A stretch of DNA of 64,000 nucleotides from Giardia intestinalis (GCA_000002435.2 CM018789.1), one strand, 5' to 3'; counted from the stretch's first letter, positions 1 to 48,958 are shown. Numbers and translations: made by a program. Notes: generated from the sequence alone by a model not told the origin.

Positions 1-1602
1 GGTTGTGAGACATGCACCGCGCCGCAGCAGATAACTGACAATACTGGAACCGCCACAGCGACGTGCACGAAGTGTGCGAGCAATAATATCGTCAAGACAG
101 ATGCGGATGAAACGACGTGCATCGCCGAGTCTGAGTGTCCCACGACAAAGGGCTTTTTCGTGGAAGACCCTGGCAGCGGGAATCAAAAGAAGTGCACGAC
201 CTGTTCGCCAAATTGCCTCTCCTGTACAAGCGCTGCGGAAGCAGCTTGCAAGTCGTGTACAGTTGAGACGCACTTCCTGGGAGCAGAGGATGGACAAGTG
301 GGCAAGTGTGTGTCATGTGGAGACGCTGCTACAGGCTCTGGTGACTGGAAGGGCGTCACGGGCTGCGCCAAGTGCGCGAAGCCCGAGGCTGCGGGGGCCG
401 CTACCTGCACCGAGTGCGCTAGCGACTACTTGAAGACAGAGGCCGGCGCAACATCCTGCGTAGAAAGGAACCGGTGCACCGGAGGATTCTTCCCCAACGA
501 CGATGTAGACGGCAAAAAGCAGTGCGTTCCTTGCGGTGATGCAGCACATAAAGGCATACCCAATTGCCGGACATGCACAGAAAGCGGAGGCGCTGTAACC
601 TGCGATGCGTGCACAGAAGGAAATACGCCTACCACGGACAAGACGGCGTGCATACCGTGCAGTGTGGATGGGTGCGACAGCTGTAACGAGGAGAACGTCT
701 GCGCAAAGTGTGCTACTGACAAATATCTCACCTCCACGGGTCAGTGTGTAGACGACTGTGAGGCTCTCGAAGGCTATTACAGCGATAAGTCTACTAATAA
801 GTGTGAGAAGTGTAGTCCTGCATGCAAGATGTGTACAAAGACGGCTGATCAATGCTCGAGCTGCCCTGCAAAGAAGGTGCTTCAGTATAGTAGCGAAAGC
901 AACCTAGATTATGGCGGCTCGTGTGTAGATGAATGTAAGGCAGGTATGAATGGCTGTGCAGAGTGCGGCGCAACTATCGGAGAGGCCAAGTATTGCTCCA
1001 AATGCAGCGACGCCAAGCAAGCACCACTGAACGGTAACTGCACTGTTAGCGCTAGGGCAGCTGCATCATGCAAGCGAGTGGAGGAAGGCGCATGTAAAGA
1101 ATGCGAAACAGGATACTTTCTTCTCGAAGGTGGATGCTATCAGACAACGAGACAGCCTGGCATGCAGGTATGTAAGACAGCCAATGGGGGGTCGTGCCAA
1201 ACCTGTGCGAACGAGTTGGCTGCTAGCAGCGGAGACTGCTCTACTCAGACATGCCATCCTAGCTGTAAGACGTGTAGTGCAGCCAATGATGCTAGCAAAT
1301 GCAAAGTATGTGCCGCCGGATACTACAAACAAAGCGATGAAAACACCGCTGGAAAATGTGATCCGTGTTCACAGGGTAATGATAAATGTACCTTATGCAG
1401 ATATTCTACGAAGTTCATATGCCTTGCAAAGGATTCATCTGATGGAGACGGAACCGATACCAAACCCGTTGATCCTCCTTCTAGCAACAAGAGCGGGCTC
1501 TCCACGGGCGCCATCGCTGGCATCTCCGTCGCAGCCATCGTCGTCGTCGGAGGGCTCGTCGGCTTCCTCTGCTGGTGGTTCATCTGCAGAGGCAAAGCGT
1601 AG
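1..1602 (+). CDS. Variant-specific surface protein (VSP), 5'-partial: the frame-1 ORF is open from base 1. Cys-rich CXXC repeats, a C-terminal transmembrane helix and the invariant CRGKA tail.
   Basis: Frame 1 is open from position 1 to TAG at 1600-1602. Translation has more than 50 CXXC/CXC motifs. It ends ...GLVGFLCWWFICRGKA, the hallmark Giardia VSP C-terminus. Confidence 0.9.
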   Translation, partial: GCETCTAPQQITDNTGTATATCTKCASNNIVKTDADETTCIAESECPTTKGFFVEDPGSGNQKKCTTCSPNCLSCTSAAEAACKSCTVETHFLGAEDGQVGKCVSCGDAATGSGDWKGVTGCAKCAKPEAAGAATCTECASDYLKTEAGATSCVERNRCTGGFFPNDDVDGKKQCVPCGDAAHKGIPNCRTCTESGGAVTCDACTEGNTPTTDKTACIPCSVDGCDSCNEENVCAKCATDKYLTSTGQCVDDCEALEGYYSDKSTNKCEKCSPACKMCTKTADQCSSCPAKKVLQYSSESNLDYGGSCVDECKAGMNGCAECGATIGEAKYCSKCSDAKQAPLNGNCTVSARAAASCKRVEEGACKECETGYFLLEGGCYQTTRQPGMQVCKTANGGSCQTCANELAASSGDCSTQTCHPSCKTCSAANDASKCKVCAAGYYKQSDENTAGKCDPCSQGNDKCTLCRYSTKFICLAKDSSDGDGTDTKPVDPPSSNKSGLSTGAIAGISVAAIVVVGGLVGFLCWWFICRGKA

Positions 1603-2706
1603 ATGTACTTAGGTAGTAAATGTGTCGGCTAATATCCATCCGCCCTCCGAGGCCTCGTCGCAGCTCTGCCCTGCAGTATGCGCCAGGGGAGCAGCCGGCC
1701 GTCTGGGTGCCGTGTTTGCCAACTGGTTCTCGAGCTCGCGGCTGCCCGGATCCAAGAGGCCCGTGCCGTCTGAGAGTGGCGCGACCGCCGCCCTCTGCCC
1801 CAGCCTTCTCCGCCCGGTGTCCTCGACAGGAAGCGGGCGGCCGGGCTAGGGTTCTTGCGCTATCGTTAGCCGCCACTAGATCCTCTCCTGTGCGGTGCAC
1901 CAGAGCTGGGCCGCCTGCTGTGCACTTAGAGGCCGCACGGATAGCCCGCCCAATCCTGGCCCTCTGAGGGCGGGTGGTTGTGACAGCAGGCAGGGGCTCC
2001 CCTCTACTCCTGCAGAGGGACGACCAGGAGCCCGGTGCGGTCATCGGTGCCTGGGCCTGTGTCTCGTGCAGCGCGGGCTGGAGAGCAGACACAGCCCCCG
2101 ACCAGAGCCCGGCCGCCACAACTGCGATCACCTCATCCACCACCGAAGTAGCTCACTGGAAGCTTAGGGGCACATACAGACACCGCCCCCCGGTCTCCAC
2201 CAGGAGCTCCTCCAGCCCTCACCGCCCCATACCCCTGCCTCACCAACCAGCCGGCCCGCTACGGGACCCAGGTGACCGCGACTGTGGGAGCGCGGCCCGG
2301 GCCACAGCTGACCGGACACCGAGGAGCGGCCAGCGGAGAGCCCGATGGCAGCCCCTGACAGACGGAAGCATCCAAAAAGACGGCGACCCGAGCTTCACCC
2401 ACCACGAAGGAAGACCAAGGAGAGGCGCCACGGGTAGACCAGAGAGTCCGCGAGAAGGCCAGGGCCCTGGACGCACACACCCACGGAGCGACCGAGGAAG
2501 GCGCCGGGCTCCTCGTGTGCCGATAGCGGGGATCCCCTTGCTGCGCCGTCCGCGGCCAGCACTCGTCTCCGGGCACGGCCAAAGGAGCGCGGCTTGTCTG
2601 GGAGCTCTCTGGGCCGCATCTAGGCAGGCGCAGCGAGCACAGGGAGGAGACCCGACCTCCTTCCCCGTCTTCTCCTGCTCCCGGAGCTGGGTGGCGCCGG
2701 GCGTCG
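355..2706. repeat. Inverted duplication, arm A (2352 bp). It covers the 3' 1.25 kb of the VSP CDS plus 1.1 kb of GC-rich 3' flank.
   Basis: The reverse complement of 5202-7553 matches this arm, with p+q = 7908. Six-frame ORF pairs are identical (1622..1849+ equals 6059..6286-, 1895..2167+ equals 5741..6013-, 1580..2143- equals 5765..6328+). Only about 2 single-base differences are visible as amino-acid changes. Confidence 0.9.
1615..1621 (+). promoter_or_regulatory. Giardia polyadenylation signal AGTAAAT (AGTRAAY), 13 nt after the VSP stop.
   Basis: The sequence tag-atgtacttaggtAGTAAATgtg follows the stop directly. The same heptamer sits just after the stops of prefoldin (about 16007-16013), P2 (about 34882-34888) and NADH oxidase (about 10788-10794 on the minus strand). 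Confidence 0.5.
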
Positions 2707-3040
2707 GAACCAGACGTCCGAGACGCCGCCCGATACGAGGAAGTGGACTAAGAACGTATTTGCTGGAAACCACCTCAGCGATCAACACTGTATCATCCTC
2801 GGAGTCACATACAGTGCCACGGCCGATGGCAAGACAGATTAATCACGTCCCGGAATGCGCCACTCCTATGCCCGCTGCTCTCACAGCCGTCGCCGGCCCC
2901 CAGGTAGTCAACGACCGTGGTGACACCAGCATACATACTTCTGCCTTGTTTACTAGGAGAAGGGCTGTATTGTCCCAGCACGATAGAAACTGGGTACGCA
3001 TACAAGCAAGGCAGACAGGAGAAGACATTGATCTGCGCCG

Positions 3041-5077
3041 TCACAGAAGATCCGGCTCCTCTAGAAGGAACTCGTTGTGGCTCTCTGACCCGGAATTTAT
3101 GCTGCGTAATTTGCTAACTCGGACCCCCCGCTTCTTCGCAAGATTGACGAGGAACGGAGTAGCCACGATGAAACCGACGATGATGAGGCCCAAGATAACA
3201 ATCGTAGAGATGAGTCCTGCACCCCTGCTGGAGAAGTTAAAGTCCGGCTTATCGCAGTAGAGACCCATGATTGAGCTGATGGCGAAAACCTGGCCAGACG
3301 TGCACCGCTCGCAAGAAATCACTTTCTTACTATCTATAACACAGGACGCACACCCACTTAGGCATTTAACGCATGTATTGTCACTATTAAAATAGTATCC
3401 CTGCACACACTCACCAGACTCACAAGTAGCGTCTGTACACTCTCCCTTGCAGCCTTCCAAGCACGGGGAGCACCGATCTCCATTAGCCGAAACGCCATAG
3501 CCGGCTAGGCACTCGCTGCACGAAGAGCCATTAGATGAATAGACTTTGCAATTTTCTACTTGTCCTTTTATGCAATTTTTATTATCAGACGACAGATAGA
3601 ATCCTTTCTTGCAAACGCTACATTGATCTATTGAGGAAACACACATCTCACAGTTGGCGACCCTACATTCTTCTAACGTATTTTTGCTACTATCATACCG
3701 GTAGCCATTGAACCCTGTTTTGCACTCGGAAAGTGACGCTCCAGTGCATATTTGGCAATTTTCTACGCACTTCTCACACATACCGTTGGTCAGATAAAAG
3801 CCTCCTCTGCATGCACTGCAACCCTGTGCAGAATCCGAAGCACTCTTCGCTTTAATACAGTTCTCCATCACGGAACCCACTTCGATGCACCTTCCATTCT
3901 GCAGGACAAAGCCCTCATCGCAATTAGTGCAGTTCGTTGCGGCGTTCTCACAAGTAAGGCAGTTGTCGTCACAATAAACACAGAGATTATCATACAGATA
4001 GTATCCATCCAGACACTCAGTACAATGAAAGCGATCGCTGCACTCTATGCAGCCCGCGATCGAACCATAGCAGGGGAGACAAAGATCATTCTCTAAGAAT
4101 CCCTTATTTGTGCAGTCTATCGATGGGGGATTAGAGCACCAGATACCATATATCTTTGGTCCTACAATAGGCTGAATCGAACCCTTACACCGAGTACAAA
4201 TGGGAACAGTTTGTTCTTGATCGAAGTAGCAGCTGTCACAGCCAGATGGACACTCAACGCACCTGGTCATGTATGAAGGATAGTAATATCCTGGCTTGCA
4301 TCCGGCCGAAAGGCACTTCCCAGGAAGCTGGTATTCGCTATTGGCACAGACTTCGCAGTTGCTCCCACATGCTTGGCAGGCGCCTTCAGAAGTGAGGGCA
4401 TAGCCGGGCATGCAGAAAGTGCACTTGCTGGAATCGCACGTGCTGCAATTGCCAGTACAACTTACACATGTTGCTGATTGTGACGTTGTTGATGGCGTAG
4501 AAAGCCTATAACCTGGCTTGCAGACAGTGCATGCTCCATCATCTGCGCAAGTGTCACAGTTAGCACTGGTACAGGCAGCTGGACTCTTCGTCGAGGGGTT
4601 AACATAGTACCCTGAGGCGGCCCTCGTGCACTCAGTGGCGCTCTTGCAGGATAGACAGTTATCAGCACACTTTGTGCAGGGGGCTGATCCCGCGCCCGAG
4701 TGGAAGTACCCCTCTGCGCAGGTCATGCACTTTCCTGTGTCATGGACGCACTTGCTACATCCTGGATATAAGTCATTGGGCTCCTTGCACGTCCCGTCCT
4801 GTGCTCTGCAGTGGGCCTCGCTGCACGCTGTGCACTTCCCCGGGCCGGTGCAGCGCTCACAGGTGGGATCGCACGGCTTGCAGTACCCTCCCTCGAGATA
4901 CGCCCCGGAAGCGCACCTCGTGCACGCGCCTGCCCCGGTGCACTCCAGGCACCACTTTATCGCCGCAGCGCACTCAACACACATGCTCCCGGTCAGGTAG
5001 TGGTTTTTGGGGCAGCTCATCTTCCCTCCACGCGAAGGCGCGGTGGCCAGAGCGACGAGCACCACCAACGCATGCAT
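3041..5077 (-). CDS. High-cysteine membrane protein (HCMP; VSP-like Cys-rich ectodomain, single transmembrane helix, cytoplasmic tail of about 35 aa not ending in CRGKA).
   Basis: 678 aa from ATG at 5077; the track start at 5080 is TTG. It has an N-terminal signal peptide MHALVVLVALATAPS, dense CXXC/CXC repeats and a C-terminal transmembrane segment GLISTIVILGLIIVGFIVATPFLV followed by a KKRG... tail. Confidence 0.85.
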   Translation of the reverse strand: MHALVVLVALATAPSRGGKMSCPKNHYLTGSMCVECAAAIKWCLECTGAGACTRCASGAYLEGGYCKPCDPTCERCTGPGKCTACSEAHCRAQDGTCKEPNDLYPGCSKCVHDTGKCMTCAEGYFHSGAGSAPCTKCADNCLSCKSATECTRAASGYYVNPSTKSPAACTSANCDTCADDGACTVCKPGYRLSTPSTTSQSATCVSCTGNCSTCDSSKCTFCMPGYALTSEGACQACGSNCEVCANSEYQLPGKCLSAGCKPGYYYPSYMTRCVECPSGCDSCYFDQEQTVPICTRCKGSIQPIVGPKIYGIWCSNPPSIDCTNKGFLENDLCLPCYGSIAGCIECSDRFHCTECLDGYYLYDNLCVYCDDNCLTCENAATNCTNCDEGFVLQNGRCIEVGSVMENCIKAKSASDSAQGCSACRGGFYLTNGMCEKCVENCQICTGASLSECKTGFNGYRYDSSKNTLEECRVANCEMCVSSIDQCSVCKKGFYLSSDNKNCIKGQVENCKVYSSNGSSCSECLAGYGVSANGDRCSPCLEGCKGECTDATCESGECVQGYYFNSDNTCVKCLSGCASCVIDSKKVISCERCTSGQVFAISSIMGLYCDKPDFNFSSRGAGLISTIVILGLIIVGFIVATPFLVNLAKKRGVRVSKLRSINSGSESHNEFLLEEPDLL

Positions 5078-5201
5078 CAACAGCTGTCTAAAAGTATTAA
5101 TTTTTAATCTTAGATCGTGTTATTAGTGGAAGTAGTGTTTGCTTGTTACCTCCTATTCGAGTAAATCTTTCGATTAAAGCGAGTCCCCATGCGCCTCGTT
5201 G

Positions 5202-7553
5202 CGACGCCCGGCGCCACCCAGCTCCGGGAGCAGGAGAAGACGGGGAAGGAGGTCGGGTCTCCTCCCTGTGCTCGCTGCGCCTGCCTAGATGCGGCCCAGA
5301 GAGCTCCCAGACAAGCCGCGCTCCTTTGGCCGTGCCCGGAGACGAGTGCTGGCCGCGGACGGCGCAGCAAGGGGATCCCCGCTATCGGCACACGAGGAGC
5401 CCGGCGCCTTCCTCGGTCGCTCCGTGGGTGTGTGCGTCCAGGGCCCTGGCCTTCTCGCGGACTCTCTGGTCTACCCGTGGCGCCTCTCCTTGGTCTTCCT
5501 TCGTGGTGGGTGAAGCTCGGGTCGCCGTCTTTTTGGATGCTTCCGTCTGTCAGGGGCTGCCATCGGGCTCTCCGCTGGCCGCTCCTCGGTGTCCGGTCAG
5601 CTGTGGCCCGGGCCGCGCTCCCACAGTCGCGGTCACCTGGGTCCCGTAGCGGGCCGGCTGGTTGGTGAGGCAGGGGTATGGGGCGGTGAGGGCTGGAGGA
5701 GCTCCTGGTGGAGACCGGGGGGCGGTGTCTGTATGTGCCCCTAAGCTTCCAGTGAGCTACTTCGGTGGTGGATGAGGTGATCGCAGTTGTGGCGGCCGGG
5801 CTCTGGTCGGGGGCTGTGTCTGCTCTCCAGCCCGCGCTGCACGAGACACAGGCCCAGGCACCGATGACCGCACCGGGCTCCTGGTCGTCCCTCTGCAGGA
5901 GTAGAGGGGAGCCCCTGCCTGCTGTCACAACCACCCGCCCTCAGAGGGCCAGGATTGGGCGGGCTATCCGTGCGGCCTCTAAGTGCACAGCAGGCGGCCC
6001 AGCTCTGGTGCACCGCACAGGAGAGGATCTAGTGGCGGCTAACGATAGCGCAAGAACCCTAGCCCGGCCGCCCGCTTCCTGTCGAGGACACCGGGCGGAG
6101 AAGGCTGGGGCAGAGGGCGGCGGTCGCGCCACTCTCAGACGGCACGGGCCTCTTGGATCCGGGCAGCCGCGAGCTCGAGAACCAGTTGGCAAACACGGCA
6201 CCCAGACGGCCGGCTGCTCCCCTGGCGCATACTACAGGGCAGAGCTGCGACGAGGCCTCGGAGGGCGGATGGATATTAGCCGACACATTTACTACCTAAG
6301 TACATCTACGCTTTGCCTCTGCAGATGAACCACCAGCAGAGGAAGCCGACGAGCCCTCCGACGACGACGATGGCTGCGACGGAGATGCCAGCGATGGCGC
6401 CCGTGGAGAGCCCGCTCTTGTTGCTAGAAGGAGGATCAACGGGTTTGGTATCGGTTCCGTCTCCATCAGATGAATCCTTTGCAAGGCATATGAACTTCGT
6501 AGAATATCTGCATAAGGTACATTTATCATTACCCTGTGAACACGGATCACATTTTCCAGCGGTGTTTTCATCGCTTTGTTTGTAGTATCCGGCGGCACAT
6601 ACTTTGCATTTGCTAGCATCATTGGCTGCACTACACGTCTTACAGCTAGGATGGCATGTCTGAGTAGAGCAGTCTCCGCTGCTAGCAGCCAACTCGTTCG
6701 CACAGGTTTGGCACGACCCCCCATTGGCTGTCTTACATACCTGCATGCCAGGCTGTCTCGTTGTCTGATAGCATCCACCTTCGAGAAGAAAGTATCCTGT
6801 TTCGCATTCTTTACATGCGCCTTCCTCCACTCGCTTGCATGATGCAGCTGCCCTAGCGCTAACAGTGCAGTTACCGTTCAGTGGTGCTTGCTTGGCGTCG
6901 CTGCATTTGGAGCAATACTTGGCCTCTCCGATAGTTGCGCCGCACTCTGCACAGCCATTCATACCTGCCTTACATTCATCTACACACGAGCCGCCATAAT
7001 CTAGGTTGCTTTCGCTACTATACTGAAGCACCTTCTTTGCAGGGCAGCTCGAGCATTGATCAGCCGTCTTTGTACACATCTTGCATGCAGGACTACACTT
7101 CTCACACTTATTAGTAGACTTATCGCTGTAATAGCCTTCGAGAGCCTCACAGTCGTCTACACACTGACCCGTGGAGGTGAGATATTTGTCAGTAGCACAC
7201 TTTGCGCAGACGTTCTCCTCGTTACAGCTGTCGCACCCATCCACACTGCACGGTATGCACGCCGTCTTGTCCGTGGTAGGCGTATTTCCTTCTGTGCACG
7301 CATCGCAGGTTACAGCGCCTCCGCTTTCTGTGCATGTCCGGCAATTGGGTATGCCTTTATGTGCTGCATCACCGCAAGGAACGCACTGCTTTTTGCCGTC
7401 TACATCGTCGTTGGGGAAGAATCCTCCGGTGCACCGGTTCCTTTCTACGCAGGATGTTGCGCCGGCCTCTGTCTTCAAGTAGTCGCTAGCGCACTCGGTG
7501 CAGGTAGCGGCCCCCGCAGCCTCGGGCTTCGCGCACTTGGCGCAGCCCGTGAC
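5202..7553. repeat. Inverted duplication, arm B. This is the derived copy, since its breakpoint falls inside the VSP coding sequence.
   Basis: See arm A. Homology starts exactly at the ...VTGCAKCAKPEAAGA codon run. The upstream VSP N-terminus and signal peptide are absent from this arm. Confidence 0.9.
6306..7553 (-). pseudogene. Truncated VSP copy: the 3' 415 codons are identical to the arm-A VSP including CRGKA, but there is no N-terminal region or signal peptide.
   Basis: ORF 6306..7652- is colinear with the VSP 355-1602 region. Upstream of the duplication breakpoint it reads MHAASTFLCLRYSSQTLYNLDLRGMRAGSAHRA, with no signal peptide. The first codon is TTG and the first ATG is at 7580. 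Confidence 0.7.
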
Positions 7554-8481
7554 GGCCCGGTGAGCGCTTCCGGCACGCATGCCCCGTAGGTCTAAGTTGT
7601 ACAGTGTTTGTGAACTGTAGCGGAGACAGAGAAAGGTGGAAGCTGCATGCAACTTCCATCGCGGGAGTGCACGTCCCCGGTGGTCTATGAAAATAACCTC
7701 ATGCTGCCAAGGTTTTACTGCGTACGAAAGTTAGTAACATGGTACTGGAGACAATCGGTGGATGGAATGAATCATCATCACCAGGAGGTAAGTTTTCTAG
7801 GAGCCTACACCGAGTACTCCCACACTCACAAGGAATCTCCCCTAGACCTCCCTCATGTACGCTGCTATTTCTGAGGGCACTGAGATAACTTAAAGGTACC
7901 CCCTCGACAGGGACAGAATGAACAGTAACAAGTACACCGCATTCATCCTTGTTGTCAAGGCCGAGCAGAGGGCTATGTTGGAACTACTCAAGCCAACCAA
8001 CAAGAGGGATATGGAGGCAGTGAGTCTCTGATTCCTCTCTAAAAACGAAGAGGTAAGGCAAATATAAGACCAGCAGTATTTACATGTCTATACACTGCTG
8101 CTCCAATGAGACAGTTCAGCTGGACACGTTACTTTTGTCAGAGTGTTGGTAAAGTATACGGATGAATTGAAGAGTGATCACGGCAGCACTGTCTTTATAT
8201 ATACAGTTGCTAATGATCACAAAGAATTTGTAGGATTGCTATTGAATAAAAGAGGGGCCTACAGGATACTAGCCGTTGAACTACTCTTATATTAGCGGCA
8301 TAGCATAACAAATCAGAATATGTCAAACTTCTCGCAGAGAAAAAGAGAAGTATAAAGACCATTCGGAGCTGGGATAGTCTTTTGCTCGGTCGACTACGTT
8401 TGCTGTGTATAGAAAGGAAGACTACAACTATCATAGTGTTTTCCACAAGAGTTCAGGGAGTAGCAAATTTGGTTGGTATAA

Positions 8482-9153
8482 ATGATAGCTCTTCATAGAT
8501 TCTCAAGAGTGATGACGGCGAAAACAATAAATTCTGGAACACAAGAATCGGTGATTATGTCTAAGGCGGCTCCGCAAGCTAGAAAGATAACACATTCTGA
8601 GGTTTTTCTTAAGGCAGAGAAGCTGGGACAGATTGTCCGTAATCAGCGCGGGGCTGTCACGGCTGACACAATAAGAAATGTTTTCGAATACCTTGACTTC
8701 GACAACAAGCGCTACATAACAATTCCCGTTCTAACAGGGTTCCTTACACAGTGCGAAGTCGTTGCAGATGATGTCTCTGTCTATAATGAAATCTTGCGCT
8801 ATCGTGAGTCTCGAATAAAGAAAGACGAGTATTTTGAAAAGCCTTCGATGGCCAAAGTGATGATTTCTCTAGAGGAGTTCTCATATTTCATGCTGTGCTC
8901 CACATTTACCAGCAAAGAGCTCCAGCCCATTCGGGAGTCATTTGAGTTGCTAGAGAAGATTACGCCGTCTCTGCGTGCTGACCAGCCAGGAACCCTTAAA
9001 ACTAACATTCTATTTAGAGAGCTACAGTTCTGGGGAATTATGACCCAAGATGAAATAGAACAAATAAGGCCCTTTTTTGGCATACTCCCAGACAGAAAAA
9101 CAATGGATGTTATCAACGCCGAGAAGATTCTGGCCCGGGTTTGTCTGGATTGA
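8482..9153 (+). CDS. Hypothetical protein (223 aa).
   Basis: ATG-initiated ORF in a gene-sized gap. A DFDNKRY stretch resembles an EF-hand loop but lacks Gly6 and Glu12, so I make no domain call. Confidence 0.4.
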   Translation: MIALHRFSRVMTAKTINSGTQESVIMSKAAPQARKITHSEVFLKAEKLGQIVRNQRGAVTADTIRNVFEYLDFDNKRYITIPVLTGFLTQCEVVADDVSVYNEILRYRESRIKKDEYFEKPSMAKVMISLEEFSYFMLCSTFTSKELQPIRESFELLEKITPSLRADQPGTLKTNILFRELQFWGIMTQDEIEQIRPFFGILPDRKTMDVINAEKILARVCLD

Positions 9154-9210: not shown

Positions 9211-10749
9211 ATGAAGGCGGTGCACCCAAGCTTCTCTCTGGAGGACGCTCACCGCGCCTATGAATCTAAGGATTATAAGACAGCAGTATCTGTCTACAGA
9301 GATATTCTTCTTCAAATTGAGGATGAGTCCGCCATAGCAGATCTAAATATTTGTCGACACTTCTTTGCCTTTGGTAAGTCTCTTCTGGAATATGCACGTC
9401 ACTTCAACAAGGAATACACCGATTATTTACAGCAGAGAGAAGAATATGCAGAGGTCAAAGGAAGCCTACCTGTGGGCATGGCCGAAGAAGACGAAACTAG
9501 TGAGGAGCTTCAAGACCTGACGTCCATTTTGCCTCCCGAGAAATATTTCGATATGGCAAAGCAGGTTTTCGGGGTCGCTGTGACAATTGCACAGAATGCC
9601 ATTGTTGAAGCACTTAATGGCATGGACATGAAAAAGGCAGCCATATCTGCCTCTCTAGGACCATCTAGTAGCGAGGTTACAAGGCAAATTAAATTCAAAC
9701 GGGTCTCTGATGCATGTAGAGAAGAGCTTAAGCTTCCGGTCAACCTATGTTTTAGCTCTATGTACAATTTGATGCTTTGCAAGTTAGAACAAGGGATATC
9801 CGTGACACTGGAATTTAAGGAGCTGTTTGCTGTCGCAATAGACCACGGGTTCTCTGTAACAGAGATGATTGACGGGACATTTGCGCTCTACACATTCTTC
9901 AACGTTCTTTCGGATTACTATGAAGAGAAAAAGCTTAAAAAATCCCTGGAAGAGTTTGAAAAGACGGTAGGCACAGTGCCTACTGCTGATTCGCCTGAGA
10001 ATGCAGATAGGGATGTTATGCAGCTGTCACATGTCTCCACAAGCTCTACCACGGATGCGGAAGTTCCGCCAGAAGAACTCCTAATAGAAATCTTGAAAGA
10101 TTTACACACCTATTACTCCGTTTGTCTGGCAAACGCTAAAATCATGACCAAAAGAAGTGTACTGGGCCGTCTCCGGCAGACGAAGGAAGGCGCCACCATT
10201 GAGAGCGACGCCACTGAGAACTTGCGTCTTCTAGAGCGAAAGTTGCATAGCCTGAATTGCGGGTTCAAGAACTATTTAGTGGAAAAACATCTGTGTGCAA
10301 CAACGTTTGGACAGTCCACCAGAAAAAGCCAAATATGTAACTTTGGTCACGAGAGTATTAGTGACGGAGATGTCTCCTACGATTCTAATATCAAGGAGAA
10401 GAAGGCTTTAGTTGCAGATACTCAGCATCGAATTGTATCTCTGAGCACACTTAGAGCTTCTGGTGTCTCTGAAGAAACCATCAGTTCCCTAAGAGCCTCT
10501 ATTAGCGATCCAAATGGAACAGTGAAGCCTTCACACCACAGTGACGATGACAGCTCAGACGACGAGGACTTTGTTCCTTCTTCTTCCGAAGATACCTCCG
10601 ATGTGCTCATAAACTCTGGTTGCAGTTCCAGCAGTGAATCTGGCAAATCATCCACCCGGTCGTCCTCGGACTCCTCTTACTCTTCCTCCTCGTCCTCCCT
10701 ATCTTCCAGCTCCTCGTCGTCCTCGCCCACCTCATCCTCGTCAGATTAG
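9211..10749 (+). CDS. Hypothetical protein with a TPR-like helical N-terminus and an acidic, serine-rich low-complexity C-terminal tail.
   Basis: The track ORF 9175..10749 starts with TTG, and the first ATG is at 9211 (MKAVHPSFSLEDAHRAYESKDYKTAVSVYRDILLQ...). The C-terminus is ...SSSSSSLSSSSSSSSPTSSSSD. NASP/SHNi-TPR-like architecture is only a guess. Confidence 0.5.
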   Translation: MKAVHPSFSLEDAHRAYESKDYKTAVSVYRDILLQIEDESAIADLNICRHFFAFGKSLLEYARHFNKEYTDYLQQREEYAEVKGSLPVGMAEEDETSEELQDLTSILPPEKYFDMAKQVFGVAVTIAQNAIVEALNGMDMKKAAISASLGPSSSEVTRQIKFKRVSDACREELKLPVNLCFSSMYNLMLCKLEQGISVTLEFKELFAVAIDHGFSVTEMIDGTFALYTFFNVLSDYYEEKKLKKSLEEFEKTVGTVPTADSPENADRDVMQLSHVSTSSTTDAEVPPEELLIEILKDLHTYYSVCLANAKIMTKRSVLGRLRQTKEGATIESDATENLRLLERKLHSLNCGFKNYLVEKHLCATTFGQSTRKSQICNFGHESISDGDVSYDSNIKEKKALVADTQHRIVSLSTLRASGVSEETISSLRASISDPNGTVKPSHHSDDDSSDDEDFVPSSSEDTSDVLINSGCSSSSESGKSSTRSSSDSSYSSSSSSLSSSSSSSSPTSSSSD

Positions 10750-10800
10750 CTTGTAAACTGCGCAACCACACAGTGCCTGTGCTAGATATTTACTCATTAC

Positions 10801-12177
10801 TCAGTCCTTCTTGTTTATCGCACTAATAGCAGCAACGTTGAGCGTATTCCACGGGTTGTTGTAGTGGGGCTGGAAGAAAAAGTCCTGGACAGCCATCTTT
10901 TCAATCGTGTACCTGTTCTGGATACACACAGCAAGTGCATTCATGACCTGGTTGACAGACGCTTCCGACATCATTTGCCCACCAAGGACCCGGTGCGTAT
11001 CCCCGTCGTAGACAAGCTTCACCATGACGTTTGCGTTGGTTGGCATAAACCCAGGCCTGTCCGTGTCATTAATGATGACGGATTTAACATTCTTGATGCC
11101 AGCAAGTAAGGCGCCCTCCTCCGTCAGGCCCGTTGAAGCCATATGGTGCTTGAATATGCGGATCCCCGACGTGCCCTCCGTTCCGATAAGCCTGAGGTGC
11201 TTCAGCTTGAGGATATGCGCAGCAGCGGCCAGGCCTGTACGGATGGCATTAGTTGCAAGGGGCATGTACCTATCCTCATCTGTGACCGTGTAGTGGATCG
11301 TCGCACAGTCTCCAATGGCGTATACACCGGGCAGACTCGTCCTCGCACACTCATCAATGATGATCGCCTTCGATGGGTGGTGAACGTCGAGTTTGACACC
11401 GTGACGCTCCGCAGACTCCAGGATCATCTCCGTGACTGGGCGGAAGCCGATACAAAGAATAGCCGCGTCTCCACTGTAGACACCCTTACTGGTCCTGACA
11501 ACAATCTTGCCATCGTCCTCGTCAAAGGCCTCCAGTCTCTCACCCATCTGGAGCTGAACGCCATGGGCACGCATCTCATCCTCGCAGATGTCAGTGAATT
11601 CCTTGTCGAAGTTACGAGACATGATCCTACCAGAGCCGTCAATAAGCGTGCACGGCTGGTTCTTCAGCCCGAAGGCCTCGGCAAGCTCGACACCGATGTA
11701 CCCCGCCCCGATAACTACGCAGTGCTTGGTGTTCTCCTCGTGAGAAAACGTTTCGACGATTTTCTTGGCGTGCATATAGTTCTTGCAGAGAAGGACCTTG
11801 TCGCTCTTGATGCCCGGGATGTCAGGGATGATTGGCCAGGAGCCCGTGGCAAAGACAATCTTGTCATACCTCTCCGTCACAGTCTCATTGGTCACGAGGC
11901 TAACTGCGGTAAGCTTCTTGGTAGTAAAGTCGATATCCGTGACGTTGTACTGCATGTGGCAGACACACCCGAGTCCCGCAAGGTCATCCGGGTTGGAGTA
12001 AAAGAGCGACTCCATGTCCTTAACCGTCCCGTGGACACCGAGAGCTATCCCGCAGGACAGAAAAGACAGGTTGTCGTTTCTCTCGTAGATGGAGACCTCG
12101 ATGCTTGGGTCATGCTGCTTGATGGTCTTCGCGACGGCTGTTCCACCGTGGTTGCACCCAAGGATGATGACCTTCAT
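10801..12177 (-). CDS. NADH oxidase (FAD-dependent pyridine nucleotide-disulphide oxidoreductase, class-I, H2O-forming type).
   Basis: 459 aa counted from the internal ATG (MKVIILGCNHGGTAVAKT). The GxGxxG FAD site is followed by a second NAD(P)-binding GAGYIGVELAE motif. The redox-active Cys lies in ...LSFLSCGIALG.... An AGTAAAT signal follows the stop. The longer track ORF (506 aa) starts upstream at a non-conserved extension. Confidence 0.85.
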   Translation of the reverse strand: MKVIILGCNHGGTAVAKTIKQHDPSIEVSIYERNDNLSFLSCGIALGVHGTVKDMESLFYSNPDDLAGLGCVCHMQYNVTDIDFTTKKLTAVSLVTNETVTERYDKIVFATGSWPIIPDIPGIKSDKVLLCKNYMHAKKIVETFSHEENTKHCVVIGAGYIGVELAEAFGLKNQPCTLIDGSGRIMSRNFDKEFTDICEDEMRAHGVQLQMGERLEAFDEDDGKIVVRTSKGVYSGDAAILCIGFRPVTEMILESAERHGVKLDVHHPSKAIIIDECARTSLPGVYAIGDCATIHYTVTDEDRYMPLATNAIRTGLAAAAHILKLKHLRLIGTEGTSGIRIFKHHMASTGLTEEGALLAGIKNVKSVIINDTDRPGFMPTNANVMVKLVYDGDTHRVLGGQMMSEASVNQVMNALAVCIQNRYTIEKMAVQDFFFQPHYNNPWNTLNVAAISAINKKD

Positions 12178-12352
12178 TGCCCTTCTTTGTTTTTGGTCTC
12201 CAAAAGTCAAATTAATTAAATTTATATCTTGAAGAGTAAGTTTGACATTTTGCATGCGCCCTGTCACACCGTCGACGCATCCCAGATTTACTTGCCCAGA
12301 CACGAATCTGTACAAGACCAATATTTACAAAGAAATCCGTTTCAATCCTAAA

Positions 12353-42816: not shown

Positions 42817-42835
42817 TATTTTGATTTACATCGCC

Positions 42836-45307
42836 GGTCCGAGCAATCCGTACCCCGTACAAGTCCTCCCCGCGGAAGGCGGACCCCGCCCGTTCGCCGC
42901 CCCAAGCCCAGAGTCCGGGGTTCGGGTCAGAACGTCGGTTGAGTCCGGGGGAGAAGAGCCCGACCGTGCACGCCAGCTCTGGCATCAACCGGAACGCCCT
43001 TCATACCTGCCGAGGAGCTAAGGCGCAATCCCTACCACCCAGTAGCACGACCGAGGCCACGGGGTTGAGCGGACGACAGCACCAGAGCGCCCGGCTGCTC
43101 GAGGCCCGGCGGACCAGAGGGCCTCCGTGAGGAAGACAGGGACCCGGCTCGTCCAGGGCACTGCGAAGCGCCGCCCCTCGCCGGGGATGCGCTCCGACGC
43201 CAGGAGAACGAGGGCCGCGGGCACACGTGGACGCCTGATAAGACGGCGGAAAAGCCGCGCCTCTCGTGCGAGCACGTGAAGCACTCATGAGCGCGCTTCC
43301 GGTGCTCCAGGTCCGGCCCGGGCCTCAGGAGCCCACTGAGACGGAGCATCCTACGCTGAGCGGCACCGGGTGAACGTTGAACTAGTAGGAGCGGAAGAGC
43401 ACGTGCCTGTCCTGAGCGAAGACCCTCCGCGGCGAGGCCGTCCAGACGCATGCAGCACAGACACCGGATGCAGGGCGCTGCTGAGTGGGGCAGCGGGGAT
43501 AGAGAAGGACATCCCCCTCAGCGCCCGTCGTGTGAACGTGCTCAGGGGAGGGTACCTAACACCCCGCAGAGCTCCAGTCGAGAGCCGAGGAGACGTGCCT
43601 CCCCACACAGCGGGGAAGCGGAGGAGCGGCATTCACCGGCCCGCTGCCCGGCTTGCAGCCTCTGCCTCGCCTCGAAGGGGAGCTGCCCCCTAACAGCGCC
43701 ACCGACGACCAGCACCTTGCTATCCAGAGGGCCGGGTCAGGACGGCCTGGACCTACGCTGGCGAGTCCATCCGGGTGCAGGCCTTCAGCGAGATCCTCGG
43801 CGCGATCCATAGGATGGGATGCGTGCTCTGTACGGTTCCGCCTGGCCCTTCCCCAAGAATGAGACAGGACAACCACGATCAGGGGACGATCATGATGCGC
43901 TCCACAAGGTAGTCCCGAGTCCCCTGGAGACCCAGACACTAGCCTTCCCGAGACAGAGCAGACTGCGTTCTACTGACTGCACATGGTGGCGTTCGCATGG
44001 CACAGGGAGACACAGGCTGATGGGCACGGCGACCTCGCTCGACATAACGAGCACCCCGACAGCAGACGGCCTCTGCCGGGCGAGTGTGCCCCGTCCCGAG
44101 GAGCTGCGTCGAGGCCTTCCTCCGGCTGTGACACGCCGCACCCCTGGGCTCGGTCCCTCGGGGCCCTACGCATGCTTCTGTGCTGCGCGGGACAGAACCT
44201 GCTCGCCAGGAGCTGAGGAGAGACCCCGCTCAGTGCCCATGCCGACGACACACTCATCTTCCATAGTAGCAACAATGACGTGGCGGGGGTAGTCACAGAG
44301 GCGGCAGGCCTGGTGAAGCAACATGGCTCGACGGTCAACACTGACAAGTATAGGAACACAGAGGGGCAGGAGGCCTCCTTCCTGGCCGGTCGAAGGAGCT
44401 CCCAGGGCAACGGAGGGCCGAAGCCAGTGATGGCACTAATCACTCGCCACGCTGGTCGAGATGGACCCGCACGTGGCCTATGTGAATCCCTCGGCAAGAG
44501 ATGGGAGCCTTGGGGTGCTTGGCTGGCAGAGGCGGACTGATCCTGCCCACACCGAAGAGTGGCGGCCTGGAACACCTGTCTGGCGTCTGCCGCAGCAGTT
44601 GGTAATCCCTTGACACCATCGAGTAGACGGGTGCCGGTTGTAGAGAGACGGCCTGACAGCGAACCGGTCCTGATCGCTCCTGGTGCCTCAGACGACGCCT
44701 CGACAGACCGAAGCATCACCCCAAGTGTGCTGTGCAGATGGACCAGCCCACAGGTCAGCTAAGCCAGACACGCTGCACAGGGTGAGCGTCGATGTGATCT
44801 CGTGCTGGGTGACGGACCAGCTGCAAGAGTGCACTGTGATTCATGAATAGGAGGGCAAACCAGAAGCCAGACCTCTCCTCCAACGCCAACGCATGGGAGT
44901 ACTCCGCCGGCATCCACGAACGCGTACTATGACTCCAAGACAGAGGCGCACGAGGAGCGCACCCTCCGGTCATACTCGGGACTGATGGTGCCCTCCACGA
45001 AGAGACGAAGAGGCACCCCGAGGAACGGGGTAGACACCCGGGGTCGTGGCGTGGGATCTTCGTCGTAGAGCATCAGCACCACGAAGCAATCCTGGAGTAC
45101 ATTGCCAGAGTCAATTGCTCTTGAGACTAGATCGCCGCGACTGACGCAAGGCCCTGAGATAGTAGGTGCCCACCAGTGCCAGACGGTAGTTGACCCCGAC
45201 GGGCCAGAGGAAGGAAAGTCCTAGGGGCACCGCGAGGAGCGGCAGCTTTTAGGAGAGCTGGGACATAGGGGTTCTTCCGCCGGGATCGAGGGCATCCGAC
45301 TCTCGGA
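42836..45307 (+). mobile_element. Copy 1 of a 2.47-kb GC-rich element: a 5'-truncated, degenerate non-LTR retrotransposon fragment (GilD-like dead element).
   Basis: Directly repeated at 51579-54050 (offset 8743 bp). All embedded ORFs are identical between copies except one amino acid (...EERSGFWF... versus ...EERSDFWF...). It contains an RT-like frame (44220-44540). The boundary is uncertain by about 5 bp because of a 1-nt indel at the 5' junction. Confidence 0.7.
44220..44540 (+). pseudogene. Reverse-transcriptase remnant (motif C and the downstream thumb region) of a non-LTR retrotransposon, interrupted by stops and frameshifts.
   Basis: Frame-0 translation reads GETPLSAHADDTLIFHSSNNDVAGVVTEAAGLVKQHGSTVNTDKYRNTEGQEASFL.... 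This parallels the L1/R2-type xYADDhhh-(about 20 aa)-GhxhNxxKT segment (for example FADDMIVYLENP...VSGYKINVQKSQAFLY). A TGA sits 9 codons upstream, and the upstream RT motifs are not in frame. Confidence 0.55.
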
Positions 45308-45596
45308 CTCTGGACTCTGCCTGGAAGCGAAAGACCTGCCTTCACTTGCCTCAACTGCCATTAAACTCTGATCTTACCCAGTGTACCGAAGCAAAAATAA
45401 GACTGTTCGGGCTGCCCCCGCGTGCTAATAGATCCCATCAGAAGTAGACGAGTCGTGGAGATGGGCTCGTTCCACGTGCCTGCTCCTCTGAGGATGCGCT
45501 GCCCTTGCTCCCCACCGAGTCCCTGGTGCTCCTCTCCGTCTCTCTGTGATCAGTAACATGTGGCACTGGCGCTTCGCTCTACCGGCCTTAGAGCGT

Positions 45597-47842: not shown

Positions 47843-47940
47843 TACTGTGTTGTTGGGACCTCCGCCTGTGGACATGGCCCAAAGGTTCCACGAATAAGCC
47901 CTCGCTCAATTCCTGGCCATATCTAGAGAAAAAGGCTACT
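47843..47940. repeat. Left arm of a perfect 97-98-bp terminal inverted repeat pair.
   Basis: The reverse complement of 47850-47940 is identical to 48862-48953. The arms enclose about 920 bp of AT-rich sequence with no ORF of 60 aa or more. Confidence 0.8.
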
Positions 47941-48861: not shown

Positions 48862-48958
48862 GTAGCCTTTTTCTCTAGATATGGCCAGGAATTGAGCGAG
48901 GGCTTATTCGTGGAACCTTTGGGCCATGTCCACAGGCGGAGGTCCCAACAACACAGCA
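48862..48958. repeat. Right arm of the 97-98-bp inverted repeat pair.
   Basis: See the left arm. The match is agtagcctttttctctagatatggccaggaattgagcgagggcttattcgtggaacctttgggccatgtccacaggcggaggtcccaacaac. Confidence 0.8.

What the first reader, a model, noticed from the sequence alone, without database searches (positions are those of the whole stretch)
1..7652. Tail-to-tail inverted VSP duplication flanking an HCMP gene, with one copy 5'-truncated
Positions 355-2706 and 5202-7553 are reverse complements of each other (2352 bp). Only about 2 base differences are detectable through translated ORFs. The arm breakpoint falls inside the VSP coding sequence. Arm A therefore belongs to a full-length VSP with a signal peptide, presumably upstream of base 1. 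Arm B is a headless VSP (no signal peptide; the first codon of the ORF is TTG) that still carries the complete transmembrane/CRGKA end and the poly(A) signal. The 2.5-kb spacer carries an HCMP gene. Giardia VSP expression is reported to be controlled post-transcriptionally by an RNAi-type mechanism fed by antisense VSP RNA. A locus where 1.25 kb of VSP coding sequence sits in both orientations 2.5 kb apart could provide hairpin dsRNA by read-through transcription. It is also a cruciform and recombination hotspot that can flip the HCMP spacer. The 1.1-kb GC-rich segment that travels with the VSP 3' end in both arms has no credible ORF, and its nature is unknown.
Basis: partly seen in the sequence, partly recalled or inferred. 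Interest (0 to 1): 0.7.

Follow-up and report, generated by a model that had tools for sequence, protein, structure and literature searches.

The report
Partial inverted VSP duplication, Giardia
On Giardia intestinalis chromosome 1, the last 60% of a surface-antigen (VSP) gene and 1.1 kb of GC-rich flank are repeated in mirror orientation on either side of a cysteine-rich membrane-protein gene; the repeat is real and is kept uniform over evolutionary time, but it is an atypical example of a duplication type already well documented in this parasite, not a new kind of element.

Summary
Window 354-2706 and 5202-7554 are reverse complements (2,353 bp, one mismatch), separated by a 2,495-bp spacer. 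The window is G. intestinalis WB chromosome 1. Arm A is the 3' part of the full-length VSP GL50803_0050379 (687 aa, = vsp185). The spacer holds HCMP Group 5 gene GL50803_0050380. Arm B is the annotated pseudo-VSP GL50803_0050381.

All four junctions are seen in independent assemblies, so this is not an artefact. Tail-to-tail identical VSP pairs, partial VSP duplications, GC-rich gene-poor VSP flanks and retroelement relics are all published. This locus is an unlisted, atypical member of that class: one copy is truncated, the ORFs are 4.7 kb apart, and the spacer carries a coding gene.

New details from this work:
- The junctions checked in isolate DHA2 (AII) are the same, yet the arms differ by 3.1% between isolates and 0.04% within WB. 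This indicates concerted evolution by gene conversion.
- The GC-rich module is a low-copy repeat with a fixed terminus at 2642/5266. That terminus is shared with the 3' end of dead reverse-transcriptase/endonuclease remnants.

The hairpin-dsRNA idea is untested. Poly(A) signals on both strands lie between the arms, and fully identical pairs such as vsp1267 are expressed. Interest is low to moderate.

The parts
1..1602 (+). 3' 1,602 nt (533 codons plus stop) of the full-length VSP GL50803_0050379 (KAE8301316.1 / XP_037901557.1, 687 aa; = vsp185 of Adam 2010). The first 154 codons, including the signal peptide, lie upstream of the window.
   Evidence: The frame is open from base 1. It matches the C-terminus of P0188 exactly. 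The protein has 687 aa, 80 Cys, 27 CXXC and 70.6 kDa, the same as vsp185. Locus tag.
354..2706 (.). Arm A of the inverted repeat (2,353 bp): VSP codons 272-687, the stop codon, the poly(A) signal and 1,104 bp of 3' flank.
   Evidence: The single mismatch is at 1674.
1615..1621 (+). Giardia poly(A) signal AGTAAAT of the VSP, 13 nt after the stop.
   Evidence: The same 20-mer is listed for GL50803_0050379 and GL50803_0050381.
1603..2642 (+). GC-rich non-coding module (69% G+C), ending at a family-specific terminus (...GCAGCGAGCACAG, last base 2642). The last ~260-340 bp (about 2303/2385-2642) are homologous to the 3' end of dead RT/endonuclease retroelement remnants. The part from 1749 to about 2300 matches only the copies in DHA2 locus L005.
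   Evidence: Composition and lack of periodicity. No Rfam match. No Pfam match. No protein homologue. Homology and shared terminus. Link to RT/EN remnants.
2643..2706 (.). 64 bp beyond the module terminus that are still part of the duplicated arm. The duplication unit therefore does not coincide with the repeat element.
2707..5201 (.). Unique spacer, 2,495 bp.
3041..5077 (-). HCMP Group 5 gene GL50803_0050380 (KAE8301317.1 / XP_037901558.1, 678 aa). Its 124-bp upstream region (5078-5201) and its poly(A) signal lie inside the spacer.
   Evidence: Pfam VSP domain, E 2.6e-18; logCPM 8.1 in published RNA-seq.
2948..2954 (-). AGTAAAC poly(A) signal downstream of the HCMP stop.
5160..5166 (+). AGTAAAT on the + strand, 36 bp before arm B begins. 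It may be a chance match.
5202..7554 (.). Arm B of the inverted repeat.
5266..6305 (-). Second copy of the GC-rich module; its terminus is at 5266 and faces the spacer.
6306..7652 (-). Headless pseudo-VSP GL50803_0050381. The ORF starts at TTG 7652, and the annotated ATG is at 7580. Only 7554->6306 is VSP-derived (codons 272-687). It has no signal peptide and no Inr; the TM-CRGKA tail is intact, and an AGTAAAT signal lies at 6293-6287.
   Evidence: Pfam VSP, E 1.5e-63; annotated pVSP. The same junction peptide is annotated in isolate DHA2 as ESU38497.1.
6234..6234 (.). The only difference between the arms (A here; the partner base 1674 is C). DHA2 carries the arm-A state, so the arm-B base is the derived one.

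Best explanation
This is a segmental inverted duplication at a VSP locus on chromosome 1 of Giardia intestinalis WB. It is an atypical, partial member of the known class of inverted VSP pairs.

A 2,353-bp block was copied in reverse orientation to the far side of an HCMP gene. The block comprises the last 416 codons of VSP GL50803_0050379, its poly(A) signal, a 1.04-kb GC-rich repeat that ends at a fixed terminus, and 64 further bases. The copy (GL50803_0050381) has no promoter, no start codon and no signal peptide, so it is a pseudogene.

What is shown:
- The anatomy of the repeat.
- The three junctions that can be checked in sub-assemblage AII isolate DHA2 (arm B's outer junction and both inner junctions) are the same there.
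- The arms differ by 3.1% between the two isolates but by 0.04% within WB.

What is inferred from this: the duplication predates the AI/AII split, and its arms are continually homogenised by intrachromosomal gene conversion (concerted evolution).

The GC-rich module is not a gene. It is a low-copy repeat. Its terminal ~300 bp are homologous to the 3' end of degenerate reverse-transcriptase/endonuclease remnants (GilD-like dead non-LTR retrotransposons), which are known to lie beside VSP genes.

The most likely role (inferred, not shown) is that the structure is a by-product and substrate of recombination-driven VSP repertoire evolution. The pseudo-copy would be a conversion partner for the 3' part of the expressed-type gene. 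I do not think it is a dedicated regulatory device.
For: Structure.

Identity of organism and genes.

Known class: 14 pairs in Adam 2010; 19 pairs in Xu 2020; 20 pairs, 'partially duplicated' VSPs and pseudogenes or retroelement relics between pairs in bioRxiv 2022.03.07.483299; G. muris pairs with genes in the spacer.

Independent support for the junctions:
- Outer junction A is present in the 2007 Sanger assembly as vsp185.
- Outer junction B is in DHA2 contig AHGT01000012.
- Both inner junctions are in DHA2 contig AHGT01000181, whose ends are inverted repeats of 484 bp at 99.6%.
- The reference assembly used 200x PacBio reads with N50 12.7 kb, against a 7.2-kb structure.

Concerted evolution:
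- 71 substitutions in 2,285 bp between the WB and DHA2 arms, against 1 in 2,353 between the two WB arms.
- At 18 sites in 2199-2610, both WB arms agree and all three DHA2 copies agree, but the isolates differ.

Module:
- No coding or RNA-family signal.
- A third copy is joined to the flank of the 1110-aa gene at exactly position 2641/2642, in 7 short-read contigs and in DHA2.
- Diverged copies with the same terminus occur in L005, L017 and window 47845-48956.
- In L017 the module-like end lies directly 3' of, and on the same strand as, an ORF whose homologues are annotated 'Reverse transcriptase/endonuclease'.
- GilD elements lie in gene-poor regions next to VSPs (PMC2861651).

The inverted repeat is absent around the P15 (assemblage E) HCMP homologue and at the P15 13342 locus.
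Against: - DHA2 is a short-read draft. Identical arms there could partly reflect collapse of reads, and arm A's outer junction was not recovered in DHA2.
- DHA2 contig AHGT01000012 runs from arm B straight into the 1110-aa gene, skipping about 10 WB genes. This is either a mis-join through the repeat or a real deletion allele, so the DHA2 structure is not fully settled.
- No reverse-transcriptase similarity was found inside the window's own module. Only its last ~300 bp link to RT-bearing remnants, and 1620-2300 remains unassigned.
- No target-site duplication or poly(A) tail was seen at the termini.
- 'No dedicated function' is an argument from absence. Transcription and small-RNA data were not available.
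Confidence: 0.7

Rival explanations
1. Hairpin-dsRNA source. Read-through transcription across both arms would fold into a 2.35-kb stem. Alternatively, read-through of the HCMP mRNA into arm A would make antisense VSP RNA. Dicer would process either into siRNAs that silence GL50803_0050379 and related VSPs.
For: A perfect 2.35-kb inverted repeat exists. The HCMP is transcribed (logCPM 8.1) and points into arm A in the antisense direction. Antisense transcripts exceed sense for 80-88% of VSPs, and their origin is unresolved. Giardia has Dicer, Argonaute and RdRP implicated in VSP control (Prucca 2008, as cited).
Against: Two AGTRAAY signals must be bypassed on either strand to join the arms, and one must be bypassed for HCMP read-through. 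Arm B has no Inr or promoter. Fully identical inverted pairs include expressed VSPs such as vsp1267 and TSP11. Antisense RNA is reported for most VSPs, whereas only 40 of 136 complete VSPs are in duplicated pairs, so inverted repeats cannot be the general source. No RNA data for this locus were available.
Confidence: 0.1
2. A recent duplication with no gene conversion. The arms would be identical simply because the copy is young.
For: There is only 1 difference in 2,353 bp. Adam 2010 suggested that identical pairs are recent duplications.
Against: The same outer-B junction and both inner junctions are present in DHA2, although WB and DHA2 differ by 3.1% in the arms and 0.3-1.6% in the flanks. 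The differences are shared by both arms within each isolate.
Confidence: 0.08
3. An invertible switch. Recombination between the arms would flip the HCMP spacer to turn the HCMP or the VSP on or off.
For: Inverted repeats of this size recombine readily. The gene conversion inferred here implies physical interaction between the arms.
Against: The HCMP's 124-bp upstream region and its poly(A) signal lie within the spacer, and the arm sequence next to it is the same in either orientation. Inversion would therefore leave the local context of the HCMP and of both VSP copies unchanged.
Confidence: 0.05
4. Assembly artefact, such as a PacBio missed-adapter palindrome or a chimeric join.
For: Palindromic artefacts occur in SMRT data. 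Earlier assemblies broke at VSP pairs.
Against: A 2.5-kb unique spacer with a conserved, expressed gene separates the arms. All four junctions are seen in non-PacBio assemblies. Read N50 was 12.7 kb at 200x.
Confidence: 0.02
5. The GC-rich module is the long terminal inverted repeat of a foldback or TIR-type DNA element rather than a retroelement 3' end. Such elements would seed the inverted VSP pairs.
For: Copies occur as inverted pairs with their termini facing outward, in window 47845-48956 (96-bp perfect arms) and in L005 10698-13421.
Against: There are no target-site duplications and no transposase ORF. In L017 a single copy sits 3' of an RT/EN pseudo-ORF on the same strand. Copies share one end and differ in how far they extend inward, which fits 5'-truncated retroelements. 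In the locus under study the termini face inward.
Confidence: 0.1

Closest known systems
Identical inverted VSP gene pairs of Giardia intestinalis WB (vsp1267 of Mowatt 1991; 14 pairs in Adam et al. 2010, PMC2996952; 19 in Xu et al. 2020, PMC7000408; 20 in bioRxiv 10.1101/2022.03.07.483299)
   Same: Tail-to-tail orientation, near-perfect identity that extends beyond the stop codon into the 3' flank and then diverges abruptly, a kilobase-scale unique spacer, and a location in a gene-poor, GC-rich VSP region.
   Different: Only 416 of 687 codons are duplicated, so one partner is a pseudo-VSP. The identical 3' flank is 1,104 nt rather than 318-559 nt. The ORFs are 4,703 bp apart rather than 2,393-3,222 bp (Adam 2010) or 2,526-2,813 bp (Xu 2020). 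The spacer carries an expressed HCMP gene, whereas no gene is listed between any WB tail-to-tail pair. The pair is absent from the main-text pair tables I could read (Adam Table 5, Xu Table 2); the preprint's S4 table was not available.
Giardia muris identical VSP pairs (Xu et al. 2020, PMC7641422)
   Same: Head-to-head or tail-to-tail identical pairs whose intervening sequence contains coding genes or truncated pseudogenes.
   Different: This is a different species. The genes between those pairs are NEK, ankyrin or zinc-finger genes, not an HCMP, and both members of each pair are complete.
GilD, the 'dead' non-LTR retrotransposon family of Giardia (Arkhipova & Morrison 2001, as described in PMC2861651), and the psi-RT remnants between head-to-head VSP pairs (PMC7000408)
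   Same: The terminal ~300 bp of the GC-rich module share sequence and an exact end with remnants that carry RT/endonuclease pseudo-ORFs. Both lie in gene-poor DNA next to VSPs.
   Different: No RT or endonuclease similarity is detectable within the window's module itself. I could not compare it with a GilD reference sequence, so calling it GilD is an inference.
Large palindromes kept uniform by arm-to-arm gene conversion (human Y-chromosome palindromes, plastid inverted repeats); this comparison rests on general knowledge
   Same: Kilobase-scale inverted arms with a unique spacer. The arms are nearly identical within a lineage but diverged between lineages.
   Different: The scale is much smaller. 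One arm interrupts a gene. The elevated GC content cannot be attributed to biased conversion here, because the VSP coding part of the arms is not GC-enriched (GC3 0.56).
Hairpin-RNA (hpRNA) endo-siRNA loci of animals and plants; this comparison rests on general knowledge
   Same: An inverted duplication of part of a gene, located near its parent, that could fold into long dsRNA.
   Different: No evidence exists for a single transcript spanning both arms. Poly(A) signals intervene, and the spacer holds an independent gene on one strand.

Membership tests
[quoted passage not shown] | C-terminal transmembrane segment followed by the invariant CRGKA tail | tested here: met
   The protein ends ...AIAGISVAAIVVVGGLVGFLCWWFICRGKA* at 1600-1602.
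[quoted passage not shown] | Cysteine-rich ectodomain with many CXXC motifs; Pfam PF03302 | tested here: met
   80 Cys and 27 CXXC in 687 aa. PF03302 is precomputed for its 90% cluster. PF03302 scores E 1.5e-63 on the part shared with copy B.
[quoted passage not shown] | N-terminal signal peptide and PyAATGTT initiator at the start codon | tested here: met
   The signal peptide MLLKITLTLAIALSAC is in P0188. vsp185 is listed with a CAATGTT Inr. Both lie upstream of the window, so they were read from the database protein and the published table, not from the window DNA.
[quoted passage not shown] | N-terminal signal peptide and a proper start | tested here: not met
   The ORF begins with TTG. 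The first 33 codons are unrelated sequence, the only in-frame ATG (7580) is not followed by a hydrophobic segment, and no PyAATGTT occurs in 1-9000. RefSeq annotates it as pVSP GL50803_0050381.
Identical inverted VSP pair (Adam 2010 / Xu 2020 sense) | Two complete, identical VSP ORFs | tested here: not met
   Only codons 272-687 are duplicated.
Identical inverted VSP pair (Adam 2010 / Xu 2020 sense) | Inverted (tail-to-tail or head-to-head) orientation, with identity running into the flank and then diverging abruptly | tested here: met
   The pair is tail-to-tail. Identity continues 1,104 nt past the stop and ends within a few bases at 2706/2707 and 5201/5202.
Identical inverted VSP pair (Adam 2010 / Xu 2020 sense) | 2-4 kb of non-coding DNA between the ORFs | tested here: not met
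   There are 4,703 bp between the stop codons, and this DNA contains the HCMP gene.
High cysteine membrane protein (HCMP/CRMP) | Cys-rich ectodomain with VSP-like repeats, an N-terminal signal-like segment, one C-terminal TM segment, and a cytoplasmic tail other than CRGKA | tested here: met
   PF03302 E 2.6e-18. The N-terminus is MHALVVLVALATAPS. The TM segment LISTIVILGLIIVGFIVATPFLV is followed by a tail of about 35 aa. The gene is named HCMP Group 5 / CRMP by its sources.
Non-LTR retrotransposon remnant (GilD-like), for the GC-rich module | Reverse-transcriptase/endonuclease coding remnant | tested here: not met
   No Pfam hit. No tblastn or tblastx similarity to Giardia RT/EN fragments within 1603-2706 beyond chance level.
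Non-LTR retrotransposon remnant (GilD-like), for the GC-rich module | A common 3' end shared among copies, with variable 5' extent | tested here: met
   The terminus at 2642/5266 is shared with copy C, window 47845/48956, L005 10698/13421 and L017 8710. The copies extend about 100 to more than 1,000 bp inward from it. In L017 this end lies 3' of an RT/EN pseudo-ORF on the same strand.
Non-LTR retrotransposon remnant (GilD-like), for the GC-rich module | Sequence identity to the published GilD consensus; target-site duplication or 3' tail | tested here: inconclusive
   No GilD reference sequence was available, and PMC64710 is not held. No target-site duplication was seen at the two elements whose flanks could be read.
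Hairpin-RNA / endo-siRNA generating locus | Both arms are contained in one transcript, and Dicer-dependent small RNAs of both polarities map to the arms | not testable with these tools
   No RNA data were available. The sequence shows AGTRAAY signals between the arms on both strands.

The most novel reading that the evidence does not exclude
The partial inverted copy could act as a genomic antisense or hairpin generator for one VSP lineage. Read-through of the well-expressed HCMP mRNA past its poly(A) signal, or a long transcript spanning both arms, would yield dsRNA covering the conserved 3' 1.25 kb of GL50803_0050379. This would seed Dicer products that act in trans on this VSP and on paralogues sharing its 3' end, such as the 94%-identical gene seen in L005. 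Gene conversion would then be maintained by selection, to keep trigger and target identical. On this reading, some of the unexplained excess of VSP antisense RNA would have a DNA-encoded origin.
Probability: 0.08. Interest if true: 0.7.

Novelty: new member of a known kind. Interest (0 to 1): 0.27.

Why it matters
The immediate value is as annotation and as a caution. GL50803_0050379, GL50803_0050380 and GL50803_0050381 form one 7.2-kb palindromic unit. Short reads, RNA-seq and small-RNA reads cannot be placed uniquely over 2.35 kb of each arm, so expression values for this VSP and its pseudo-copy are confounded.

Biologically, the WB/DHA2 comparison gives a clean example of Giardia VSP inverted repeats that are old but homogenised. 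This changes the published reading of identical pairs as 'recent duplications', and it implies frequent intrachromosomal conversion at VSP loci, which is a route to repertoire change.

The fixed repeat terminus shared with RT/endonuclease relics links the GC-rich 'gene-poor' VSP flanks to dead retroelements at base-pair resolution. It also offers a marker (...CACAG end) for a genome-wide census.

None of this is a new kind of system.

Tried and rejected
- **Structured RNA in the GC-rich module.** Rfam found nothing at gathering threshold over the whole window. At E<=1 over 1400-3100 it found only a chance mir-33 hit outside the arms.
- **A protein gene in the module.** There is no codon periodicity, no Pfam family in five ORFs, and no homologue of the 244-aa frame among 5.8 billion proteins.
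- **Tandem repeats in the module.** None were found.
- **Homology between the module and the window's other GC-rich repeat (42833-45315 / 51577-54058).** None was found.
- **RT similarity inside the module, L005 or the 47.8-kb element.** I found only marginal hits (E 0.002-0.1) in the 47.8-kb element and in the 42.8/51.6-kb repeats.
- **Fetching WB DNA upstream of the window or around copy C.** The reference chromosome is not in the contig index. All short-read contigs end inside the repeat.
- **L005 as the DHA2 orthologue of arm A.** I rejected this: L005 is a paralogue, 94% identical over the last 1,015 bp only.
- **GC-biased gene conversion as the cause of the high GC.** I rejected this because the VSP coding part of the same arms has ordinary GC3 (0.56), and WB/DHA2 substitutions are balanced between AT->GC and GC->AT.
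- **A conserved RNA hairpin near the terminus.** RNAalifold gave a weak consensus (-10 kcal/mol), and its compensatory changes come mostly from one lineage. This is only a hint.
- **Papers not held.** Liao 2014 (endo-siRNA regions) and Arkhipova & Morrison 2001 could not be read.

Full report
**1. Observation**

The repeat finder reports one long inverted repeat in the first 12 kb. A base-by-base comparison places the near-perfect core at 354-2706 and 5202-7554. The core is 2,353 bp long with a single mismatch (1674 C against 6234 A). Similarity is lost abruptly on both sides, and the spacer is 2,495 bp.

Frame 1 is open from base 1 to a stop at 1600-1602 and ends in the VSP hallmark ...FLCWWFICRGKA. 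On the minus strand the same 416 codons run 7554->6306, inside an ORF that begins at a TTG at 7652 with 33 unrelated codons. A 678-aa cysteine-rich ORF lies on the minus strand of the spacer at 5077->3041. The 1603-2706 flank is 69% G+C, has no three-base periodicity and is T-poor.

One detail needs correction. The two VSP coding segments are 4.7 kb apart; it is the arms that are 2.5 kb apart.

**2. Identity**

Exact-sequence look-ups place the window in Giardia intestinalis WB clone C6, on the 1,485,438-bp record that is chromosome 1 (NC_051856.1).

- Copy A is KAE8301316.1 / XP_037901557.1 = GL50803_0050379. This is a 687-aa VSP whose signal peptide lies 154 codons upstream of the window. 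Its length, 80 cysteines, 27 CXXC motifs and 70.6 kDa match vsp185 of Adam et al. 2010. That gene was listed as complete, with a CAATGTT initiator, unplaced, and without any 'tail-to-tail' flag.
- The spacer gene is HCMP Group 5, GL50803_0050380.
- Copy B is annotated as the pseudogene pVSP GL50803_0050381, starting at the in-frame ATG at 7580.
- The breakpoint is in codon 272.

**3. Not an artefact**

Each junction is seen outside the PacBio assembly.

- The 5' part of the VSP joined to arm A is present in the 2007 Sanger assembly as vsp185.
- The arm-B/13342-side junction is present in the AII isolate DHA2. It lies in contig AHGT01000012, as protein ESU38497.1, which has the same 33-residue junction peptide.
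- Both inner junctions are present in DHA2 contig AHGT01000181. That contig is 3,483 bp long, carries the HCMP, and has ends that are 484-bp inverted repeats diverging at exactly 2706/2707 and 5201/5202.
- The reference assembly used 200x PacBio reads with N50 12.7 kb, more than the 7.2-kb structure.

**4. Age and maintenance**

WB and DHA2 differ at 71 of 2,285 aligned arm positions (3.1%). This breaks down as 28 of 1,036 in the GC-rich part and 43 of 1,249 in the VSP part (26 synonymous and 14 non-synonymous codons). The single-copy flank differs by only 0.3-1.6%. The two WB arms, by contrast, differ at 1 of 2,353 positions.

Across 2199-2610 there are 18 sites where both WB arms carry one base and all three DHA2 sequences carry another. 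The three junctions recoverable in DHA2 (arm B's outer junction and both inner junctions) are shared with WB, so the duplication predates the AI/AII split. The arms must therefore have been homogenised within each lineage. This is concerted evolution, most simply by intrachromosomal gene conversion.

At the single WB difference, DHA2 has the arm-A base, so the arm-B base is a new mutation that has not yet been converted.

Two caveats apply. DHA2 is a short-read draft, and its arm-A outer junction was not recovered.

In assemblage E (P15), the HCMP homologue (83% identical) has no flanking repeat. The 13342 neighbourhood there holds a kinase and a differently oriented VSP, and synteny with WB starts only at window 8122. 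The structure is therefore specific to assemblage A.

**5. The GC-rich module**

The module shows no sign of being a gene or a known RNA:
- It has no Rfam family and no tandem repeats.
- It has no Pfam domain in any long frame.
- The one long frame searched (244 aa, 1974-2706) has no homologue among 5.8 billion proteins.

It is, however, repeated.

(a) A third, nearly identical partial copy is joined to the 3' flank of the 1110-aa gene next to GL50803_003539. By accession numbering this is about ten genes upstream of the VSP. The join is at the position corresponding to window 2641/2642. Seven independent short-read contigs end inside this copy, and DHA2 contig AHGT01000012 crosses it.

(b) Diverged copies (69-81% identity; nhmmer E 1e-54 to 1e-62) lie just downstream of a paralogous VSP in DHA2 locus L005. 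There they form a decayed inverted pair, 10698-13421.

(c) The window's own small inverted repeat at 47845-47940 / 48861-48956, and a copy between the heads of a head-to-head VSP pair in DHA2 locus L017, share the terminal ~130-200 bp.

All of these copies end at the same base...CACAG, which corresponds to window 2642 and 5266. They extend inward from that end for different lengths.

In L017 this end lies directly 3' of a 290-aa ORF on the same strand. The homologues of that ORF are annotated 'Reverse transcriptase/endonuclease, putative' in WB. Published work places the dead non-LTR family GilD in gene-poor regions next to VSPs (PMC2861651), and RT remnants between head-to-head VSP pairs.

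I therefore read the last ~300 bp of the module as the 3' end of a GilD-like relic. The rest of the module (about 1620-2300) matches only the L005 copies and stays unassigned. No RT similarity is detectable inside the window's module.

The duplicated arm runs 64 bp past the repeat terminus. The inverted duplication was therefore a segmental event, not a transposition of the repeat.

**6. Function**

Only four AGTRAAY poly(A) signals occur in 1-9000. Three sit just after the three genes: + strand at 1615, - strand at 6293, and - strand at 2954. The fourth is on the + strand at 5160, immediately before arm B. Any RNA containing both arms must ignore two of these signals. Copy B has no initiator.

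The HCMP's upstream 124 bp and its poly(A) signal lie inside the spacer, so inversion of the spacer would not change any gene's immediate context.

Roughly 20 fully identical inverted VSP pairs exist in WB. They include vsp1267, the expressed VSP of a studied clone, so inverted VSP DNA is compatible with expression. Antisense VSP RNA is widespread and its origin is open, so the dsRNA idea is not excluded. Nothing in the sequence favours it, and it could not be tested here.

My best reading is that this is a by-product and substrate of recombination-driven VSP evolution. The pseudo-copy would serve, at most, as a conversion partner.

**7. Comparison with what is known**

The following are already published:
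- tail-to-tail identical pairs (vsp1267; Adam 2010; Xu 2020);
- 'partially duplicated' VSPs, and pseudogenes or retroelement relics between and beside pairs;
- higher GC content and low gene density around VSPs;
- pairs with genes in the spacer, in G. muris.

This locus is absent from the main-text pair tables I could read (Adam Table 5, Xu Table 2; the preprint's S4 table was not available), because one partner is a pseudogene. It departs from the canonical WB tail-to-tail pairs in four ways:
- only part of the gene is duplicated;
- the identical flank is 1,104 nt rather than 318-559 nt;
- the ORFs are 4,703 bp apart rather than about 2.4-3.2 kb (2,393-3,222 bp in Adam 2010);
- the spacer holds an expressed HCMP gene.

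**8. Verdict**

This is a new, atypical member of a known kind. The added value is threefold: evidence for concerted evolution, the third module copy, and the shared repeat terminus that links the flank to dead retroelements. Interest is about 0.27.

Noticed in passing
window 42833-45315 and 51577-54058: A second long repeat, this one direct: 2,484 bp at 99.8% identity with start-to-start spacing of 8,744 bp. It is also 62-70% G+C. It is not homologous to the VSP-flank module. It shows weak similarity (E 5e-4 to 1e-3) to Giardia RT/endonuclease fragments at 44858-45088 / 53709-53831 and 82% identity to part of DHA2 locus L005 (18623-19074). Between the two copies lie a NEK kinase gene, the small inverted-repeat element and a Schlafen-like gene.
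   Followed up: partly
window 47845-48956: A 1,112-bp foldback-like unit with perfect 96-bp terminal inverted repeats and a 920-bp ORF-less centre. Its outer ends are homologous to, and end at the same ...CACAG terminus as, the GC-rich module beside the VSP. No target-site duplication is present. It lies 190 bp upstream of a NEK kinase gene.
   Followed up: partly
window about 61830-61925 (+): An orphan, degenerate VSP C-terminal tail (…AVAGISVTAVIVGDLVSFLCRWFVCRLKR…). It is 71-79% identical at the DNA level to VSP 3' ends, has no VSP body upstream, and lies just beyond the start of the 1431-aa ORF at 57497-61792.
   Followed up: no
L003 (DHA2 contig AHGT01000012) 12383/12384; L006-L011, L013 contig ends: In DHA2, the contig runs from 13342 through the pseudo-VSP and the module straight into the 3' flank of the 1110-aa gene. 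It skips what in WB are about 10 genes, the full VSP and the HCMP, although the HCMP with inverted module ends exists on its own 3.5-kb DHA2 contig. This is either a mis-join through three near-identical module copies or a real deletion allele between direct copies.
   Followed up: partly
window 2707-3040 versus 5078-5201: The two non-coding ends of the spacer evolve very differently between WB and DHA2. There are 30 substitutions in 333 bp (9%) on the side downstream of the HCMP, next to arm A. There are 0 in 124 bp on the HCMP promoter side.
   Followed up: no
window 50293-50889 (-): A 198-aa ORF with a Schlafen AlbA_2 domain (PF04326, E 6.7e-11), lying between the two direct GC-rich repeats.
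   Followed up: no
L017 (DHA2 contig AHGT01000075) 6380-11401: A head-to-head VSP pair (672 aa and 419 aa) whose 3' parts form a 1,093-bp inverted repeat at only 89.5% identity. An RT/endonuclease pseudo-ORF and the module-type 3' end lie between the heads. This is an example of a diverged inverted pair, i.e. one that is not being homogenised.
   Followed up: partly
alignment A1 (last ~75 nt before the module terminus; window about 2570-2620): RNAalifold proposes a small conserved hairpin (TGGCC...GGCCA stem) with some compensatory changes. The energy is weak (-10 kcal/mol), and most of the changes come from a single lineage.
   Followed up: partly
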